NCBI GenBank assembly: GCA_024626585.2
Contig: JANKJI020000002.1
Location: 96,621,736 to 96,656,067, forward strand
DNA length: 34,332 nt
Direction: 5' to 3'
DNA from: Ginkgo biloba
Taxonomy: Eukaryota; Plantae; Ginkgophyta
Below are positions 2,494 through 32,909 of the stretch, one piece after another. Within the stretch, counting starts at the first letter, position 1; every line of letters begins with the position of its first letter. The notes under the pieces were generated by a model. The model was not told the DNA's origin. It worked only from the letters and a program-made list of their open reading frames with translations, and did no database searches. A program made the translations under genes and the position numbers.

Positions 2494-3388
2494 TATAAAT
2501 AATTGTAAGGCATAAACCATAGATGCATTTGGCTTATTATTAATAGTTTATAGAGGTGAATAGATTTAAGAATATAATTTATTTTTTTAATTAAAAATAT
2601 GATTCATTATTACGAAAAAGAAAATCATTAAGATATAAATATAATTTATAAAAAGATAAGGGCAAAAAGTGCCTCCGAAAAAAATAATGTAAGGAGGATT
2701 ACCATATTAGGATTAGAATCCCATTGTTTGTTGATAGCAACAATCTAGGTGGGGTCTATGGCAAGCATTTCAAGTTTTGTTGGGTTAGGGGTTGGGTGCA
2801 TAGCAACCATGTGTGTGGGGTCTATGCTTGGAGTTATGAGATTTGTCAGTGGCATGTCATGACTTCAATTGAAATGTAGTAGTGAGTTCATAACTCCATG
2901 GGATAACCTTCCTTGCTAGATGAGTTTTTTGTCACTAACCTCACATATAGTAACTAGTGACCTCACAAAAAGAAGTTATTTTGTAAGTTGTACAAAGTTT
3001 TGGATTGTTTCCATATACATTATCGTTCCAAATACCTACTAATGACATGTTAGTATAGGAATTGATTTTTGGTTAGTGTGACACTATGTAACGAATAAAA
3101 GATTTTTTCTTTAGGTTTTCACATATGGTTTCTAAGAATGTGAACAAATAGTAAATTTTATTATAATTTTCTAAAAAAAGTATGATAAATATTCCAAGTT
3201 TGATTTGCTCATATGATATGATGTGGCTAGTAATGTTTCCTTGTTGCCTTAGCATATTTATTTTTAAAAAATTATTTACACGCCACTTNNNNNNNNNNNN
3301 NNNNNNNNNNNNNNNNNNNNNNNNNNNNNNNNNNNNNNNNNNNNNNNNNNNNNNNNNNNNNNNNNNNNNNNNNNNNNNNNNNNNNNNN

Positions 3389-3498: not shown

Positions 3499-3698
3499 AT
3501 GATTAATAATCAAATATACCATTTAGGTAAAGCCAATATTCGTCATAGGCAAATGTCTTCCGATAAGAATACGGGGTTTGATGAGTTCAAAATTTTCATA
3601 CATTTTCAAATTTTTAGTGCAAATAATTTATCCAAAGAATAAAATCAAAGCAATTCGAATAGCAGACAGAAGTTGCATTGCATGCTTGATCATTGGCA

Positions 3699-3902
3699 AT
3701 GGACTCCACATCCACATCATTGGAAAAGAGTGATGAACGGTCAGTTCTGTTTGAATACCAACTGCAAATCTTCTTCTTCATTAATGAGAAACTCGATGAA
3801 TTGAATGTTGATTTGTTTCTATCCATAAAAACAGAGCAATCCATCCTCTTTTCCATTCATTCATTTCGTGCAAGGGAATTCCTTCTCAGGAAAAATGCAT
3901 AG
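3699..3902 (+). promoter_or_regulatory. Candidate upstream ORF (67 aa, MDSTSTSLEK...LLRKNA*) ahead of the KASH-like gene
   Basis: ATG at 3699 in gcaATGg context, TAG at 3900-3902. It is a uORF only if transcription starts upstream of 3699, which is unknown. Confidence 0.3.
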
Positions 3903-3914
3903 AGTGAATGAATG
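3854..3914 (+). promoter_or_regulatory. Stem-loop (19-position stem, 23-nt loop) in the presumed 5' leader
   Basis: cattcattcatttcgtgca (3854-3872) pairs with tgcatagagtgaatgaatg (3896-3914): 15 Watson-Crick pairs, 3 G:U pairs, 1 mismatch. Confidence 0.55.
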
Positions 3915-3931
3915 AAGTTCTGAAACCCCGG

Positions 3932-4090
3932 GTGAGTAATTTGAATAGAAAATTTGGGTAGTCCAACTTAATCTTGTCGCCTTTAATTATGCTTTAGTTT
4001 TGGGCTCTTGAGGATTATGTGTAGAGATTCCTGCGCTCTGGAAAACTGGGCTGTGTTGTTATTTGATTTGTTTGTGTATTTCTTCCATAG
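3932..4090 (+). other. Probable 5'UTR intron (159 nt) of the KASH-like gene
   Basis: Consensus donor G|GTGAGT at 3932, U-rich interior, acceptor ttttgtgtatttcttccatag-type tract ending in AG at 4089-4090. An in-frame TGA at 4103-4105 precedes the ATG at 4193, so the upstream exon is non-coding for this frame. Confidence 0.6.
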
Positions 4091-4192
4091 ACGCTTTCAA
4101 ACTGAATAATCATACTTCTTAAACCTCGCCTGAATCTGCGATGTTGTGGCCCTTTGCAACATTGTATTGTATGGGAGAATCTGTCAAGTCCA

Positions 4193-4537
4193 ATGGAAGA
4201 AGCGATGAAGAGAATGCATTTGGAGCTGACGCACGGAAGGCATAGGTGGCATAGACCCCTTGAGCGCAGTTGGAAAGCTTTTAGGAAGCACAGGAGATGC
4301 AGCTCATATTGTTCTGATGGGTCTGAGCAGGGTTCCAATTCATATGAAAATGCTTCTGAAAACCAATGTTACATGTCTCCTCCAATCATAAATAAGGAAC
4401 GCTGTGAGAAGGAACATGCCCACAAGGAGGAAGCACATGACGTGGGCTGTTGTCATGGGAGCATGGGCTGTTGTCATGGGAGCTCTGATATGTCATGTGA
4501 TTCACAGTGTACCCCCTTGGAAGCTGCTCTTAATCAG
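4193..4537 (+). CDS. Coding exon 1 (115 aa) of a putative plant KASH-domain outer nuclear membrane protein
   Basis: First in-frame ATG at 4193 (ccaATGg). Open frame MEEAMKRMHLELTHGRHRWHRPLERSWK...CTPLEAALNQ ends at donor CAG|GTAATG (phase 0), which matches the phase of the acceptor at 7897. Confidence 0.8.
4443..4483 (+). repeat. In-frame 21-nt-period tandem duplication encoding GCCHGS-M-GCCHGS
   Basis: tgggctgttgtcatgggagc occurs identically at 4443-4462 and 4464-4483. Confidence 0.95.
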
Positions 4538-5096
4538 GTAATGATTAATGCTAATATTTCCTTTCTTATGTGGGCACTTGTGTTGATTTAAAATTCAAGA
4601 ACAATTATCAAATCCCAATTTGAGATCAATTGGTGGTTATCAGAGGCTATGTGAACTGTACTGTAAGTCCTGTGGTGTATTCTACGATGATCTACTAATT
4701 CACATGAAACCCTTTTTTTGTTTTAAGGATGCCAGGGTTCTTTTCCGAGGGATGAGGGTTTTTTTTTCTGTATTTTTTCCCCCCTATTTTTTTTTTTCAA
4801 TTTTGAAGGACAATATTTGGGCTCAACGTAGGGTCTATCACTAATCTATGCTGTCAATCTATGCCCTCCCATGCCAAAGATTAAATTAAAAAATAAGTTG
4901 AAATCAGTATTTTACAACTTGGGGATGGAGTATCTTTGCCTGGGAACATTGGCCTCAACTCTTTGCCATTGTTTTCTGAACAGGGTAACATTTCAGAACC
5001 TGTAATCTCACCTTGTAAGCGAGTTCCCTGTGACTTAATTCATATATTTGTCTTCGATTGAAACCAATTTGTGGAGGTTAAATCTGGGTGGCTGGT

Positions 5097-5704
5097 ATTA
5101 TGTCATTTTTGGATCTGAAATTAGACTAAGTGAACCAAGATCCATATGAATGGATAAGACAAGGATGGTTGGGTTCATATAGACCCCACTTAGACTTTAA
5201 GGAAAACCAAGCTACTTTTTTAGCTAAATTCCAATGCAACCCATTTCCTCTAATTTGATCATCTATATCTTCAATCGTGTTGAAATACCCACATAGAATC
5301 CAACATGTGATAGGGATCTTGTTTCTTAACCACTAGTAGAGTTAGGCCCTTTTATCATGTAAGTTGGATGCATAAATGTTTATTATACCCATGGTGCTTC
5401 CTCTAATATGGTATTGAATCCATATCACTCTATTGGCAGGGTCACGACTCCAATAAATAACACATTTTTAAAGAGAGGGATCTAGAATGGTTTCAGCTCC
5501 ACCTCTTCCCTCCTGATGATTAGAGAAAAAAATTACCCCCCTTAGCCAATTAGCATTGAGGGTGGTGAAAAGTATAAATCCTTTAACCTTAACTTCCTAT
5601 AATAAAATCATTAGAACCTTTTTTTCAAACTTTAATATCTTTACTAAGATTTTTTCTTATGGGTTAGCAATCCCATGCATGTTCTGACTAATTAACTTAA
5701 TCAT
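5097..5704 (-). mobile_element. Decayed L1-type LINE ORF2 endonuclease (EEP/APE-like) fragment, antisense within the intron
   Basis: Minus-strand translation gives MIKLISQNMHGIANP*, ILL*EVK, GIINIYASN, WILCGYFNTIE and WFT*SNFR. These match LINE endonuclease motifs SWNVRG, LQETK, NIYAP, GDFN and FTWSN in the right order. Several stops; truncated near 5097. Confidence 0.85.
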
Positions 5705-6880
5705 TAATAAAGTGAAGGAAATTAATAGTCCATGGTTCCCTGCTCATCTTTCCCTAGGTTCACTAACACTTGATATAGGTTTTATAAAGATTCTATAGTC
5801 TCTCTCATCTTATTATACATGGTATAATATTGATTGAGGTTTTTTCCTACATTGGCACCTTTGACCACTTGTGAGAGTAACATTGTTTAGGATTCTAGGG
5901 GTGGTGGAGGGGAGAAATGGAAAATCTTATTTTTACCCTAGGGTTTTGGGATATGCTTCTCTCTAGTAGAATGATTCTTAGTATAAGGGACATCCCAAGG
6001 GACCGTATGGGACTTGGATGGCTATTCCTTGGGAGATACATTCTTCATTGATGTATTACTTTGTGTAGGTTGACTTGCAAGCATGTTAGTTTTGCTTGAA
6101 GAGCATTTATTCTTGGACTTTAAAACTTGCCAACCATCTTCTAACAAGGTATCAACAAGATATTTAGACCCATTATTACTTTTGTTTTTAGATAGTTCAT
6201 TCGTCGGAGTATGATATGGGGTTGGTGGACCACTTTTGGATATCAGAGGATAATATTTGATCATGTGTTTAGAACTCTAGTAGTGAAAACATGTATTAGG
6301 AATGTGCATNNNNNNNNNNNNNNNNNNNNNNNNNNNNNNNNNNNNNNNNNNNNNNNNNNNNNNNNNNNNNNNNNNNNNNNNNNNNNNNNNNNNNNNNNNN
6401 NNNNNNNNNCCTTAGAGGGATAATAAAGTATGTTTGGTGGAGAATAGTGAGGAATTTGGTAGCAGAACCACCTATATAGGTAGCCACATTCAAAAGGAAG
6501 AATAAAGAGAGGTTTTGGTGTGAAGACTGATATAATTATTGATAGAGGCAACTAGATGGATTTGCTTAAAATCCTCCAAGAGGGAGATTGTGGTATATTC
6601 TTTTGAGGTTAAACCCCAGTNNNNNNNNNNNNNNNNNNNNNNNNNNNNNNNNNNNNNNNNNNNNNNNNNNNNNNNNNNNNNNNNNNNNNNNNNNNNNNNN
6701 NNNNNTTCCTCCATGTGTTTTATGTATGTTTTTTGGTTGTGTGGGTTTGATGATAACATACCCTTGAAGGGTAGGGCCATCGCATAAGGGACAAAGAGAG
6801 ATGCCCCATTTGTATCCTAAGGAGTGACTAGAGTTAGAGGAATTAGGGAGACAACTGCATCATTTGGCATCAAATCCATG
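5705..6880 (-). mobile_element. Possible ORF1 remnant of the same intronic LINE
   Basis: Lies directly upstream of the ORF2 start on the minus strand and contains LLEDGWQVLKSKNK, resembling the GW..V..K motif in plant LINE ORF1 C-termini. Heavily decayed and split by two gaps. Confidence 0.4.
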
Positions 6881-7079
6881 TCTAAGGCTTATGAAGGAAT
6901 TGGTTGAGGAAAGTTAAGGAAATATTAAATTTTTTTTGGTGGAATAAAAGATGAATTAAGAATGGTAAGGAGAGTATTTGAACGAGGGTTGATAAAAACC
7001 AATAGAGAGTTATAATTCCTAAGAAAAGATTTTGCAGAGTTGGATAAAGAAAGAGAGAGGTAAGTAAAAGAGGAGTAGA

Positions 7080-7882
7080 TTCAAGCCATAATGGAAAAGC
7101 TACGCACATTATGCACTCCGAAGGGGAAGACATCTCCCAATAGGAAGGAGGAGGTGGAAAAGGTCAAAGTAGGCAGAGATGAGATGTTGGGGTCTATGGT
7201 GAAGGCATTTCTAAAGAGGAGAGGAGAAAATATTTCAATAAGGAAGAAGAGAGAGGATTAGAATATCCTATGGAGAATGTTCAAGTGATGAGAAGTCCTA
7301 TGTGAAGGATAGAAAGAGAAAGAACCCATATAAGGACCAGGTGAAGAGGAACTAGAGATAGTTCTGTGTGAACTAGAACCTAGAGAGAGTGTGGAATAAA
7401 TGGCATATGATGAGGAGACTTTGAATGAGACTGTGAAAAGGAAAAGTAAGGTGGAGGATGGTGAGATCCCATGTGCGGAACGAGAATTTGATGATGAGAT
7501 TTTGGATGAAGTAGTGAAAATACTTCTTAAGGAACCATACGAAGGATAAGGTGATGAGTTGAATGGGGTTTTGTGTGAATAACCAAATAAAATATTAAAT
7601 GAGATGAAAAATATGTGGCCATGTGATGAGGTCCCACATGAGGGATAGAATGAGGAATTTAGGATGTTTAGATCCCATCCATATCTAAATTTTATGGTTG
7701 TTGAAATAGAGGTTGAAGTGAAGGAAATGATAGATGTTTCCCATGATGGTGATGAGGTGCTCCTAGATAGAGCGCATAGTGAGAAGATGCATATTGGTAG
7801 TGTATATAAGGAAGAAGGCATAAATATCCTTGAAAAAGTATTAATTTTTTCTGATTATTTTGTAGGTGATGATGATTTATAG
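7080..7882 (+). mobile_element. Decayed Glu/Asp-rich reading frame, probably TE-derived
   Basis: Strongly purine-rich stretch reading EETLNETVKRKSKVEDGEIPCAEREFDDEILDEVVK...FVGDDDL* with scattered stops. No diagnostic domain recognised. Confidence 0.35.
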
Positions 7883-7897
7883 TGTTGATCTTTTCAG

Positions 7898-8608
7898 AAC
7901 TTCAAATCCCCAATGACAGTTGATGACTTCCATATGTTCAACACTTCACCAAGGACACTTGTCCGGTCACTGCAGCAGCAGTTCTCTCCTGAGTCTGAGA
8001 AAGTGAAGAAGCAAGCCAAAGAAAGATGTGCAGATGCTGGGTATGATCCAATTTGGAGTATCAGAAACAACCCCATTGCTAGCGATACAGATGACGAATT
8101 AAGGGCAAGAAAACAAGGACTGGCAAATGTTGCCTGCAGGGGTAGAATGTTGTTCTCAGACCTGGAAAGTGTGGTTAATGGGGATTTGGAGAGAAGGAAA
8201 GCTCAAGCGGGAGACCCTGACGAGCTGAGTTCTCCATGGTCATCCACTGTTGAAAAAGTTGGATTTACTTCATCAGCTTCTTCCAATATCCCTTTTCCTG
8301 AAATTACAGATAAGCAGGAAGAGTTACCCATCATCAATATGCAGACTGTGGCTGTTAAAGGAAATCCTGGGGTTAACTGCAGGAAAGAAGAAATCACGCA
8401 AAAGGATGTGGATTCAGTGGAAGTTTTATCCATATATTCTGAATTCAAAGAGGCAAGTGCATCCGGTGGTGGATGGGCGAAAGCATGGAGCTTAATGGAC
8501 TTCATTCTGAGGGGATCCCTATATGTTGTACTGCTTGTTCCTGCAGCTATGGTGGCAATTAAGACATTTACATGTCAAGAAAAATACCATATTTTGGTTC
8601 CTACTTAA
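7898..8608 (+). CDS. Coding exon 2 (236 aa + stop) of a putative plant KASH protein; TM helix ~8501-8560, luminal tail 8561-8605 ending LVPT
   Basis: Acceptor ttttcag| at 7897, then an uninterrupted 711-nt frame. C-terminus FILRGSLYVVLLVPAAMVAI-KTFTCQEKYHILVPT*. A TM helix, a short tail and a terminal hydrophobic-V-P-T are the established plant KASH signature (Arabidopsis WIP and SINE proteins). Confidence 0.88.
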   Translation, partial: NFKSPMTVDDFHMFNTSPRTLVRSLQQQFSPESEKVKKQAKERCADAGYDPIWSIRNNPIASDTDDELRARKQGLANVACRGRMLFSDLESVVNGDLERRKAQAGDPDELSSPWSSTVEKVGFTSSASSNIPFPEITDKQEELPIINMQTVAVKGNPGVNCRKEEITQKDVDSVEVLSIYSEFKEASASGGGWAKAWSLMDFILRGSLYVVLLVPAAMVAIKTFTCQEKYHILVPT

Positions 8609-14789: not shown

Positions 14790-15398
14790 ACTATGGAATA
14801 TATTATTATAAGATTGGTTGTCTTGTACCAACGTGACTGGGGAGAACAACTTTTAGAGGTAGTCTAGGCATACTGAATTGCATGGAAAAATGTGACTGGA
14901 TTCACACCATTCTAGCTGGTGTACGAAAAATCCATGGTCATGCCTATTGAACTCAAAATCAAAACCTTTAGAATGGCACAACAATTGGGGTTATCTCTTG
15001 ATGACACACAACGTGCCTACCTAGAACAAATACACCAACTGGACAAATTTAGGCAAGAAGCAACATAGTGAACAGATTTGGTCTAAAGTTAAAGGAAATA
15101 ATGGCATGATAGACATCTGCAAATTAAGGAATTTATACCTTGAGATTGGGCTTTACTTTATGATTCACGCTACAACAATTTTCTAGGAAAGTTTCAAATT
15201 TGCTGGATGGGCCCTTACCACATCAGGCAAGTTTTTTCTAATGGCATTGTACTATTAGAAACTATTGATGATAGTGGCACTACATTTCTGGTTAACGACT
15301 ATTGTCTGCGGGCATACAAGAAGCCAGTCACTAGAGAGCAGTTTGTACAGCGGATGGTCTAAGAACCCGATTTACAGGTTCTAGATCAAACCTATTAG
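14790..15398 (+). mobile_element. Decayed Ty3/gypsy (Athila/Tat-like, non-chromovirus) integrase C-terminal half
   Basis: RDWGEQLLEVV*AY*IAWKNVTGFTPF*LVY...MPIEL...WHDRHL...DWALLYDSR...GKFQICWMGPYHIRQVFSNG...VNDYCLRAY. GPY/F motif at 15210-15218. Confidence 0.93.
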
Positions 15399-24039: not shown

Positions 24040-24900
24040 GTCTTGATAAATGGATCCATGATATTTATTTATTCTTTTAATTTCAAAGAGTATAAATTAA
24101 GGATGCCCCCTTTCTCCTAGAATATTTATCTCAATCAAATTATTTTGTTACTCACTTGATAAAGGAGAAAAATAATTCTAAGATCCTAAATTTGTGTTGG
24201 TAGAAAGGAATATGAATCTTATAACCCACCAAGAATTTACAAATGGGGCAATCCTATTTGATTTTAAAAAATTAAGAGAATCCATAATATTAAAAATAAC
24301 TATAGACATGTATCTTAAAGTCTTGGGAGAAAAAATAATCATAGAGAAAATATAACTACAATGTTACAATATTTCAAAGCATATTAAAGAATAAATAGTA
24401 TTCATCTAGGAAATTGATCTTAGGGATAGTATAAACCATTTACAATACCTTGAGGTTTTCCTTGCAATAAAAAGACACATTGGGATCCTATTATAGGAAA
24501 GTTTTAAAAAATGGTAAGTTCTTGGATAAGAAAAAATTTCTCCTTAGTAGGAAGAGTTATTCTTATAAAATCAATGTTAAGCTTAATCCCAATTATACAT
24601 GTAGTGCTTTTGGGATCCCGAATAAGAAGTTTGAGGGTTTTTTTAAATATCATAAACAAATTCTTTTGGAAAGGATCTAGATATGAGAAGAAGGAATACA
24701 AACTAGTAAGATGGGACCACACAACCAAACTTAACAATCATAATGGTTTAGGCATACAAGATCCATTAATGACAAATGTAATCTTAGGGATAAAAAGTAG
24801 TTGGTTATTGTAGAAGGAAGAAGAAAGACCTTATAGCAAGATGATAATAAAAAAATACTGTGGTTGTGCAAGTTCTAGAAATATAACCATTGTTTAAATA
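24040..24900 (+). mobile_element. Decayed L1-type LINE RT, C-terminal part and post-RT region
   Basis: LINGS...SKSIN*GCPLSPRIF (RQG.PLSP motif), then HWDPII, SWIRKNFSLVGRVILIKSMLSLIP, NKFFWKG, LVRWD and NGLGIQD. Confidence 0.9.
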
Positions 24901-31895: not shown

Positions 31896-32388
31896 TCAGT
31901 TGCCTCCTACATTGTCGATGGTTTTAACTGGGACATCAGCTTCTCCACCAATGCCACCACCGCCTCCAAATCCTCCGCCTTTGCCAATTCCACCACCAAA
32001 ACCTCCTCCGTGACCTCCCCCAAATCCTCCTCCTTTTCCGTGCCCACCTCCAAACCCACCGCCAATTCCACCACCATTCCCTACCCCGCCTCCAATTCCG
32101 CCGCCTTTGCCAATTCCACCACCAAAACCTCCTCCGTGACCTCCTCCAAATCCTCCGCCTTTGCCAATCCCACCTCCGTGCCCTCCTCCAAACCCGCCAC
32201 CAATTCCACCACCAAATCCTCCACTGTGACCACCACCAAACCCACCGCCAATGCCGCCACCATTCCCTATCCCTCCACCAATTCCTCCGCCCTTACCACC
32301 ACCCCCACCAATTCCGCCGCCAATGCCGCCAATGCCTCCACCCTTGCCTATTCCCCCACCAATTCCGCCGCCAATGCCGCCGCCCTTA
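31896..32388 (-). CDS. Glycine-rich (GGGX)n protein, probable cell-wall structural GRP; 5' end lost in gap
   Basis: 163 open codons: ...KGGGIGGGIGGGIGKGGG...GGGFGGGHGGGFGGGIGKGGGFGGGGGIGGEADVPVKTIDNVGGN* (TGA at 31898-31896). Third positions of the GGN codons vary freely while GG is fixed, which identifies this strand or its poly-Pro mirror as the coding frame. The clean non-repetitive tail, stop and downstream AATAAA favour the Gly reading. Confidence 0.88.
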
Positions 32389-32909
32389 NNNNNNNNNNNN
32401 NNNNNNNNNNNNNNNNNNNNNNNNNNNNNNNNNNNNNNNNNNNNNNNNNNNNNNNNNNNNNNNNNNNNNNNNNNNNNNNNNNNNNNNNGATAAGAAGAGT
32501 ATTAATAAGGTAATAGGATTTAAGGACATATTTTATCCTCCTATGAACTAACTTGATATGTACATGGAACTATAGAGCGAAGGGAAAGGAAAGTTGAATT
32601 GAAGCTCAATCTCTCTATTATTGTATTATTTGGATAATACAATGGTTTCTTTCCCAGATGACCTCATCTCTAGAATTCTTATTCACTAGTTATGCATGCA
32701 TGCCATTGGTGGAGATGTAGGGTACTTAAAAAGCATAAGGACCTATCACCTAAAGTATCCCTATATTTCATATACCTTTATTGTTTATCTTTGTTTGCCT
32801 CATCTTCTAATATGGAAACAAATATTGATTCCTTTGGTAACATCAATAGTGACCACATAACAAATAATTAAAATAAATCAATATAAGAGATTGGAAAAAA
32901 CTCCTCATT

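What the first reader, a model, noticed from the sequence alone, without database searches (positions are those of the whole stretch)
4193..8608. Atypical plant KASH (LINC-complex) protein assembled from two ORFs 3.4 kb apart
Seen: two ORFs listed separately in the track splice in phase 0 (CAG|GT at 4537/4538, CAG|AAC at 7897/7898) into a 351-aa protein ending TM-KTFTCQEKYHILVPT*. Known: a C-terminal TM, short perinuclear tail and terminal xVPT is how plant KASH proteins (WIP1-3, SINE family) bind SUN proteins. Inference: the cytoplasmic part shows no ARM repeats (SINE1/2), TIR domain (TIK) or long WIP-type coiled coil that I can recognise. It looks largely disordered, with short motif-like islands (KRMHLELTHGRHRWHRPL, FNTSPRTLVRSLQQ, RGRMLFSDL) and several S/T-P sites (MSPP, KSPM, TSPR, FSPE) that could be CDK/MAPK targets. 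It may be an uncharacterised KASH family linking the nucleus to an unknown cytoplasmic partner.
Basis: partly seen in the sequence, partly recalled or inferred. Interest (0 to 1): 0.78.

Follow-up and report, generated by a model that had tools for sequence, protein, structure and literature searches.

The report
Gymnosperm SINE protein lacking ARM domain
This spliced Ginkgo gene, with relatives in conifers, is a shortened copy of the known nucleus-anchoring SINE1/2 proteins that keeps the nuclear-envelope docking tail but lacks the domain that links some SINEs to actin, so it likely docks on the nuclear envelope without anchoring the nucleus.

Summary
The splice is real: contigs of 4 of 4 presumed RNA runs (4 studies) join 4537|7898. 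The gene is Ginkgo biloba Gb_33275 and ends in a hydrophobic helix plus a 15-residue LVPT tail that meets the published KASH rules. It is not a new KASH family. It matches the C-terminal half of the full-length Ginkgo SINE1/2-type protein Gb_08088 (42% over 288 columns), carries the SINE motif DDxxxF..(S/T)PRxLxxSLQ, and likely shares the last intron position with SINE genes. What it lacks is the ARM domain (PF24714); an in-frame stop lies upstream of the start codon. ARM-less relatives in Pinus and Cryptomeria group with it (95/94 and 92/92; a Ginkgo-only origin is not rejected, p-AU 0.086). Best reading: a natural counterpart of the engineered maize MLKS2ΔARM, which stays at the envelope but cannot anchor nuclei. 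SUN binding and function are untested. New variant of a known kind.

The parts
3582..4170 (+). 5' untranslated region as far as transcript contigs reach (true start site not shown); in-frame TAA at 4120-4122 closes the frame upstream of ATG 4171
   Evidence: Contigs X8 (from 3582), X2 (from 3810) and X1 (from 3834) run unspliced into exon 1; stop found
4171..4537 (+). Coding part of exon 1 (109 codons once the window-only insertions are left out); corresponds to the linker of full-length SINE, residues about 399-513 of Gb_08088
   Evidence: Gb_33275 starts here; same Met and Phe15 spacing in Pinus PITA_30529; local alignment to Gb_08088 reached by 0 of 300 shuffles
4213..4234 (+). 19 extra nt found only in the window; they shift the frame and put ATG 4193 in frame. 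Likely misassembly, or a rare allele
   Evidence: Absent in 3 of 3 covering contigs and in Gb_33275; about 31 nt around it match DNA contigs of summed depth 2842, i.e. a high-copy repeat
4443..4463 (+). 21-nt tandem duplication found only in the window
   Evidence: Direct repeat D2; absent in 4 of 4 contigs and in Gb_33275
4538..7897 (+). 3360-nt GT-AG phase-0 intron, largely repeat-like DNA, with two N gaps; likely the conserved last intron of SINE1/2 genes
   Evidence: Joints; in-frame AG 16 codons before the motif Pro in 3 of 3 SINE loci L001-L003, 17 here
7898..8608 (+). Exon 2 coding sequence, 236 aa plus stop
   Evidence: 99% identical to Gb_33275; 45% identical to Gb_08088 residues 520-753
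7922..7975 (+). SINE1/2 signature motif DDF..TSPRTLVRSLQ (TPR[RK]L in full-length SINEs)
8054..8080 (+). WSIRNNPIA motif, shared with liverwort, moss, lycophyte and fern SINEs
   Evidence: 4 of 5 ARM-less-group and 11 of 36 ARM-bearing sequences, none of them angiosperm
8090..8200 (+). Predicted helix (residues 174-210) holding the gymnosperm RGRMLF motif
   Evidence: AlphaFold2 block pLDDT 52-75; motif in 9 of 11 gymnosperm sequences
8504..8560 (+). Predicted transmembrane segment
   Evidence: Hydropathy 2.09; within helix 301-334, block pLDDT 72-90
8561..8608 (+). 15-residue KASH-type tail ending LVPT, then stop
   Evidence: meets the DORY rules of PMC4050730; last 10 residues differ from Gb_08088 at one position

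Best explanation
The gene is a spliced, ARM-less paralogue of the plant KASH proteins SINE1/2, and its product likely inserts in the outer nuclear membrane and binds SUN through its LVPT tail but likely cannot tie the nucleus to actin, so it would loosen or tune anchoring by full-length SINEs. Shown here: the splice, the 345-aa product, homology along the C-terminal half of Gb_08088, absence of ARM, and relatives in Pinus and Cryptomeria. Inferred origin: a Gb_08088-type gene was duplicated before Ginkgo and conifers parted, and the copy began translation at a new ATG inside the linker. Inferred from published constructs: envelope targeting, SUN binding and loss of anchoring. Speculative: competition with full-length SINEs for SUN pockets.
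For: Joint in 4 of 4 presumed-RNA contig sets. 42% identity over 288 columns to Gb_08088, E 6e-59, which carries PF24714 at 91 bits against a cut-off of 43.3. Profile-profile match of the ARM-less group to 39 SINE sequences, probability 99.8. No Pfam hit in Gb_33275. No ARM-region tblastn hit in the window for 6 ARM-bearing queries at E up to 1. In-frame stop at 4120 inside sequence that transcript contigs cover unspliced. Exon 1 of Gb_33275, PITA_30529 and P0011 aligns to Gb_08088 399-513 (0, 1 and 0 of 300 shuffles) and to none of 11 other SINEs. ARM-less group on one branch: 95/94 (27 rows), 92/92 with Gb_08088 as sister at 91/88 (16 rows). Published analogue: maize MLKS2ΔARM stays at the envelope, loses actin colocalisation, is more mobile and does not anchor nuclei (PMC6649574, passages). 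SINE2, 4 and 5 need a terminal LVPT for SUN binding and envelope enrichment (PMC4050730, passages).
Against: No binding, localisation or phenotype data exist for this protein. A pure competitor needs only the membrane anchor and tail, yet the SPRxLxRSLQ and WSxRxNPIA motifs are kept, which points to a partner of its own. ARM status does not predict actin linkage: AtSINE2 has ARM but no actin association (PMC4050730) and ARM-free MLKG1 colocalises with actin (10.1101/343939). The AU test does not reject Gb_33275 plus Gb_08088 as a clade (p 0.086). Only 3 of the 5 grouped rows are full-length models; P0002 and P0008 are exon-2 fragments. The Cryptomeria N-terminus matches neither Gb_08088 (116 of 300 shuffles) nor the other ARM-less proteins, and its branch is long. 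Residues 1-70 of Gb_33275 alone do not match Gb_08088 above chance (252 of 300). ARM-less models can be artefacts: Taxus P0010 is a partial model of ARM-bearing P0014.
Confidence: 0.5

Rival explanations
1. Specialised adaptor: the ARM-less SINE binds SUN and uses its retained linker motifs (SPRxLxRSLQ, WSxRxNPIA, the 174-210 helix) to recruit its own cytoplasmic partner, with the motif no longer under full CDK-consensus control. This does not exclude the best explanation.
For: WSxRxNPIA is in 4 of 5 ARM-less-group sequences and in non-seed-plant SINEs but in only 1 of 5 gymnosperm ARM-bearing paralogues. The full CDK consensus at the motif is in 31 of 32 ARM-bearing SINEs that match the pattern and 0 of 5 ARM-less ones. 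Disordered ARM-free KASH proteins have functions of their own, e.g. SINE3 in gametogenesis (PMC11511747).
Against: No partner is identified. The motifs have low pLDDT in both models. The five ARM-less rows are related, so 0 of 5 may be one event.
Confidence: 0.3
2. Decaying or redundant duplicate: a tail-anchored ER or envelope protein with little LINC role.
For: Fast divergence (31-37% identity to the conifer models). Few reads in three raw RNA runs. The window's own letters carry a frameshift.
Against: Open frame, start Met, motifs and xVPT are kept in Ginkgo, Pinus and Cryptomeria. Spliced contigs in 4 studies. The frameshift is absent from all covering transcripts.
Confidence: 0.12
3. Gene-model artefact: the locus is the 3' end of an ordinary ARM-bearing SINE gene whose first exons lie outside the window or in N gaps.
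For: The window has 23 N runs, one at 3289-3388. Such a partial model exists for Taxus P0010.
Against: Contigs run unspliced up to 589 nt upstream of the ATG, across an in-frame stop at 4120 that lies downstream of the one acceptor-like site I noted there, at 4091. The same start Met is used in Pinus and in P0011.
Confidence: 0.05
4. One reading: an independent, uncharacterised KASH family unrelated to SINE1/2.
For: No Pfam domain. A search for longer relatives with exon 2 alone found none among 2960 candidates.
Against: HMMER over all representatives and an alignment-based search found ARM-bearing SINEs; E 6e-59 to Gb_08088; shared motifs and likely shared intron.
Confidence: 0.02

Closest known systems
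SINE1/SINE2 family (At1g54385, At3g03970; maize MLKS1/2; Ginkgo Gb_08088, Gb_10260, Gb_07597; PF24714 TORTIFOLIA1/SINE1-2 N-terminal domain)
   Same: Homologous linker, (S/T)PRxLxxSLQ motif, membrane helix, xVPT tail and likely the same last intron
   Different: No ARM domain and no first ~100 linker residues (345 aa against 753); SPR[TS]L in place of TPR[RK]L, which loses the full CDK consensus
Engineered maize GFP-MLKS2ΔARM (PMC6649574)
   Same: Same architecture: part of the disordered linker, membrane helix, KASH tail, no ARM
   Different: This one is a natural gene with relatives in conifers; its behaviour is untested
SINE3, SINE4, SINE5 and MLKG1/2 (short ARM-free plant KASH proteins)
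   Same: Short cytoplasmic part without known domains, membrane helix and xxPT tail
   Different: SINE3/4 are described as unrelated to SINE1/2 (PMC7746247) and all are limited to angiosperm groups; none was named among the 13 and 52 hits. Their sequences were not compared directly
WIP1-3 and TIK
   Same: WIPs share the terminal VPT
   Different: No long coiled coil or TIR domain here; no homology found

Membership tests
Plant KASH protein (DORY definition, PMC4050730) | Transmembrane segment directly before the tail | tested here: met
   Hydropathy 2.09 and predicted helix 301-334; no dedicated TM predictor was available
Plant KASH protein (DORY definition, PMC4050730) | Tail of 9-40 residues at the C-terminus | tested here: met
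   10-15 residues depending on the window chosen
Plant KASH protein (DORY definition, PMC4050730) | Terminal [DTVAMPLIFY][VAPIL]PT, kept in most homologues | tested here: met
   LVPT; 4 of 5 ARM-less-group rows (the fifth is a fragment) and 33 of 36 ARM-bearing rows
Plant KASH protein (DORY definition, PMC4050730) | Nuclear-envelope localisation and SUN binding dependent on the last four residues | not testable with these tools
   Needs imaging and co-IP; no plant SUN sequence was on hand for a complex prediction
SINE1/2 family | N-terminal ARM-repeat domain (PF24714) | tested here: not met
   No Pfam hit, no ARM hit in the window, upstream in-frame stop. It is therefore filed as a SINE1/2-derived paralogue, not a canonical member
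SINE1/2 family | Homology of linker, membrane helix and tail to SINE1/2 | tested here: met
SINE1/2 family | Conserved DDxxxF..(S/T)PRxLxxSLQ motif (my own definition from the alignments, not from a paper) | tested here: met
   32 of 36 ARM-bearing and 5 of 5 ARM-less-group rows
SINE1/2 family | F-actin association through ARM (SINE1, MLKS2; not SINE2) | not testable with these tools
   Predicted absent by analogy to MLKS2ΔARM
SINE3/4/5 and MLKG | Sequence homology | not tested
   Their sequences were not retrieved; none was named among the hits
WIP / TIK | Long coiled coil (WIP) or TIR domain (TIK) | tested here: not met
   No Pfam hit; one 37-residue cytoplasmic helix only

The most novel reading that the evidence does not exclude
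Gymnosperms have kept, since before Ginkgo and conifers split, a dedicated ARM-less SINE that acts as a built-in clutch for the LINC complex: it fills SUN pockets or mixed SINE assemblies, releases nuclei from actin when they must move, and has shed the TPR[RK] CDK site that is conserved in full-length SINEs from liverworts to angiosperms.
Probability: 0.25. Interest if true: 0.68.

Novelty: new variant of a known kind. Interest (0 to 1): 0.44.

Why it matters
Plant KASH proteins are described as unrelated families that share only a tail. This case shows one route to a short, disordered KASH protein: truncation of an ARM-bearing SINE with the last exon kept. It raises the testable question of whether other short KASH proteins arose the same way. 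It also gives a natural counterpart of an engineered ΔARM construct, and it points to two conserved linker motifs of SINE1/2, one a full CDK consensus site, that can be mutated in Arabidopsis, maize or moss today. I found no description of an ARM-less SINE in the searchable papers, but the main evolutionary survey (Poulet 2017) and the Medicago paper could not be read. Practically, the window's exon 1 should not be used as the reference sequence.

Tried and rejected
Pfam on the two exons: only a sub-threshold MRP-63 hit, E 0.038, rejected. Search for longer homologues with exon 2 alone: none; weak evidence, overturned. ESM Atlas: Gb_33275 could not be searched; P0002 and P0009 gave only sub-threshold unrelated hits. 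No whole genome is held, so the repeat origin of the 19-nt insertion could not be checked in the assembly. No listed holder run is on record as RNA. Metagenome scan with P0008: 114 stretches, none related; with the ARM-less alignment: 3 loci, of which L002 and L003 carry ARM exons and L001 holds only the last exon. Idea that the linker motifs dock on the ARM domain: the full-length Gb_08088 model leaves them at low confidence, and the complex job of ARM 1-300 with Gb_33275 100-200 gave no answer, score 0.01; this is neither support nor evidence against. A tblastn hit of Gb_07597 residues 333-382 at 14814-14990 (E 0.002, minus strand) lies outside ARM and was not pursued. A possible 5' UTR intron 3932-4091 is not spliced in the contigs. 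Earlier scan findings: none by sequence or words. Poulet 2017 and Newman-Griffis 2019 are not held. No supplements were read; those of Zhou 2014 and Poulet 2017 may list gymnosperm SINE sequences.
Full report
Observation. The donor at 4537/4538 and the acceptor at 7897/7898 are as described and give a 351-codon frame ending in a hydrophobic stretch and KTFTCQEKYHILVPT. I laid 8 of the 24 runs listed. Contigs of X1, X2, X7 and X8, from four studies and guessed by the tool to be RNA, each skip exactly 3360 nt with GT..AG ends. The three raw-read RNA runs gave 6, 2 and 8 reads, all in exon 2 or the 3' UTR, and cannot test the joint. The DNA-like run X15 shows no joined form. Exon 2 is 99% identical to Ginkgo biloba Gb_33275, 345 aa.

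Correction of the N-terminus. All three contigs that cover 4213-4234 lack 19 nt there, and all four lack a 21-nt tandem copy at 4443. Without them the frame opens at ATG 4171 and gives 345 aa with 3 substitutions against Gb_33275. The Pinus relative aligns to this start without gaps up to Phe-Gly-Arg (score 41 against 18 for the window's start). So MEEAMKRMHLELTH is specific to this window. About 31 nt around the insertion are matched by DNA contigs of summed depth 2842, which suggests an assembly detour through a repeat; a rare allele is not excluded.

What it is. HMMER over 1.84 billion representatives gave 13 hits including itself. Four of the other 12 match PF24714, the TORTIFOLIA1/SINE1-2 N-terminal domain, three above the cut-off and one below. 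An alignment-based search gave 52 hits, among them proteins annotated SINE1 and Ginkgo Gb_08088; that profile included ARM columns, so its E-values do not measure C-terminal homology. The direct comparison does: 42% identity over 288 columns to Gb_08088 residues 470-753, E 6e-59, and probability 99.8 for the ARM-less profile against 39 SINE sequences. The tail of Gb_08088 also explains a second, longer transcript that touched 8576-8607 in X2, X7 and X8. AlphaFold2 gives Gb_08088 a confident helical domain at 7-294, a disordered linker and a membrane helix; Gb_33275 has only the linker-like part, a helix at 174-210 and the membrane helix.

The loss of ARM is real in Ginkgo. Transcript contigs run unspliced from as far as 3582 into exon 1, across an in-frame stop at 4120, and six ARM-bearing queries find no ARM-region match in the window. 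Exon 1 of Gb_33275, PITA_30529 and P0011 aligns with Gb_08088 399-513 (0, 1 and 0 of 300 shuffles) and with none of 11 other SINEs; residues 1-70 alone are not significant. The intron likely matches the last intron of SINE genes: an in-frame AG lies 16 codons before the motif proline in 3 of 3 SINE loci and 17 here, where one residue is inserted (acceptors inferred, not RNA-tested). Two database proteins, P0011 and Nelumbo P0029, appear to read through a donor at the same place (Q then V).

Age. ARM-less full-length models exist in Pinus taeda (348 aa) and Cryptomeria japonica (299 aa). On the C-terminal region the five-row group has 95/94 support (27 rows); with more linker it has 92/92 and Gb_08088 as sister at 91/88 (16 rows). 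Most angiosperm rows and short fragments were left out of the first tree and all angiosperms out of the second. The AU test does not reject Gb_33275 plus Gb_08088 as a pair (p 0.086), the Cryptomeria branch is long and its N-terminus matches nothing, and Taxus P0010 shows that ARM-less models can be partial. One origin before the Ginkgo-conifer split (roughly 300 million years, recalled) is likely for Ginkgo and Pinus, less sure for Cryptomeria.

Motifs. The pattern PR/KxLxxSL is in 32 of 36 ARM-bearing SINEs; two of the four misses have close variants. It forms a full CDK consensus (S/T-P-x-K/R, recalled) in 31 of those 32 and in 0 of 5 ARM-less-group rows. WSxRxNPIA is in 11 of 36 (ten non-seed plants and Gb_07597) and 4 of 5. 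RGRMLF-like motifs are in 9 of 11 gymnosperm, 0 of 11 non-seed and 0 of 19 angiosperm rows; RWH is in 1 of 41.

Mechanism. The tail meets all three DORY rules, and SINE2, 4 and 5 need their terminal LVPT for SUN binding and envelope enrichment (PMC4050730; passages and section 22 read). SINE1 reaches actin through ARM (same paper). Maize MLKS2ΔARM stays at the envelope, loses actin colocalisation, becomes more mobile and no longer anchors nuclei (PMC6649574; passages). SUN is modelled as a trimer with three KASH tails (PMC13200780; abstract, introduction and section 10), and SINE1 and SINE2 are listed as interactors (PMC7746247; passages). From this I infer that the protein occupies SUN pockets without an actin link and so tunes anchoring by the three ARM-bearing Ginkgo SINEs found here (0.5). 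Against: conserved cytoplasmic motifs suggest a partner of its own (0.3), SINE2 has ARM without actin association, and ARM-free MLKG1 colocalises with actin (10.1101/343939; passages). SINE3 shows that a short disordered KASH can have its own role (PMC11511747; passages).

Novelty. Nine paper searches showed no ARM-less SINE and no mention of the gene ids. Passages of PMC13280194 and PMC13155315 added nothing on it. Poulet 2017, which covers gymnosperms according to PMC13200780, could not be read, so prior notice is possible. It is a new, ARM-less variant of a known family with an untested but easily testable function; interest 0.44.

Noticed in passing
window 31896-32388, minus strand: 3' part of a glycine-rich protein gene (GGGIGGG and GGHGGG repeats); its 5' part falls in the N gap 32389-32488. 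No Pfam hit.
   Followed up: partly
window 24508-24813, plus strand: 101-codon frame that resembles the C-terminal part of a plant LINE reverse transcriptase (recalled resemblance); no Pfam hit.
   Followed up: partly
window 4538-7897: The intron is largely repeat-like: DNA contigs of X15 pile up to mean depth 4830 at 5812-6012, and 6000-8000 is strongly purine-skewed.
   Followed up: no
window 3932-4091: Donor-like GG|GTGAGT and acceptor-like TTCCATAG in the 5' UTR; retained in contigs X1, X2 and X8.
   Followed up: partly
window 8222, 8335, 8505: Single-base differences among runs in exon 2 (G8222A, C8335A, T8505C); two match substitutions in Gb_33275. Likely alleles.
   Followed up: partly
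proteins P0013-P0049 (SINE1/2 family): A TPR[RK]LxxSLQ motif with a full CDK consensus is conserved from liverworts to angiosperms just after the last intron; I saw no mention of it in the passages read.
   Followed up: partly
Ginkgo proteins P0001, P0003, P0005, P0017: Ginkgo has at least four SINE1/2-related genes (Gb_33275, Gb_10260, Gb_07597, Gb_08088); the Gb_07597 model has a broken-looking ARM match below the Pfam cut-off.
   Followed up: partly
L001:202-850, L002, L003:6004-10942: Unannotated SINE1/2 loci in metagenome contigs; L003 holds a whole multi-exon gene ending YYPVPT.
   Followed up: partly
window 14814-14990, minus strand: Weak tblastn match (E 0.002) to Gb_07597 residues 333-382; may be chance or a repeat-derived stretch in that gene model.
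   Followed up: no
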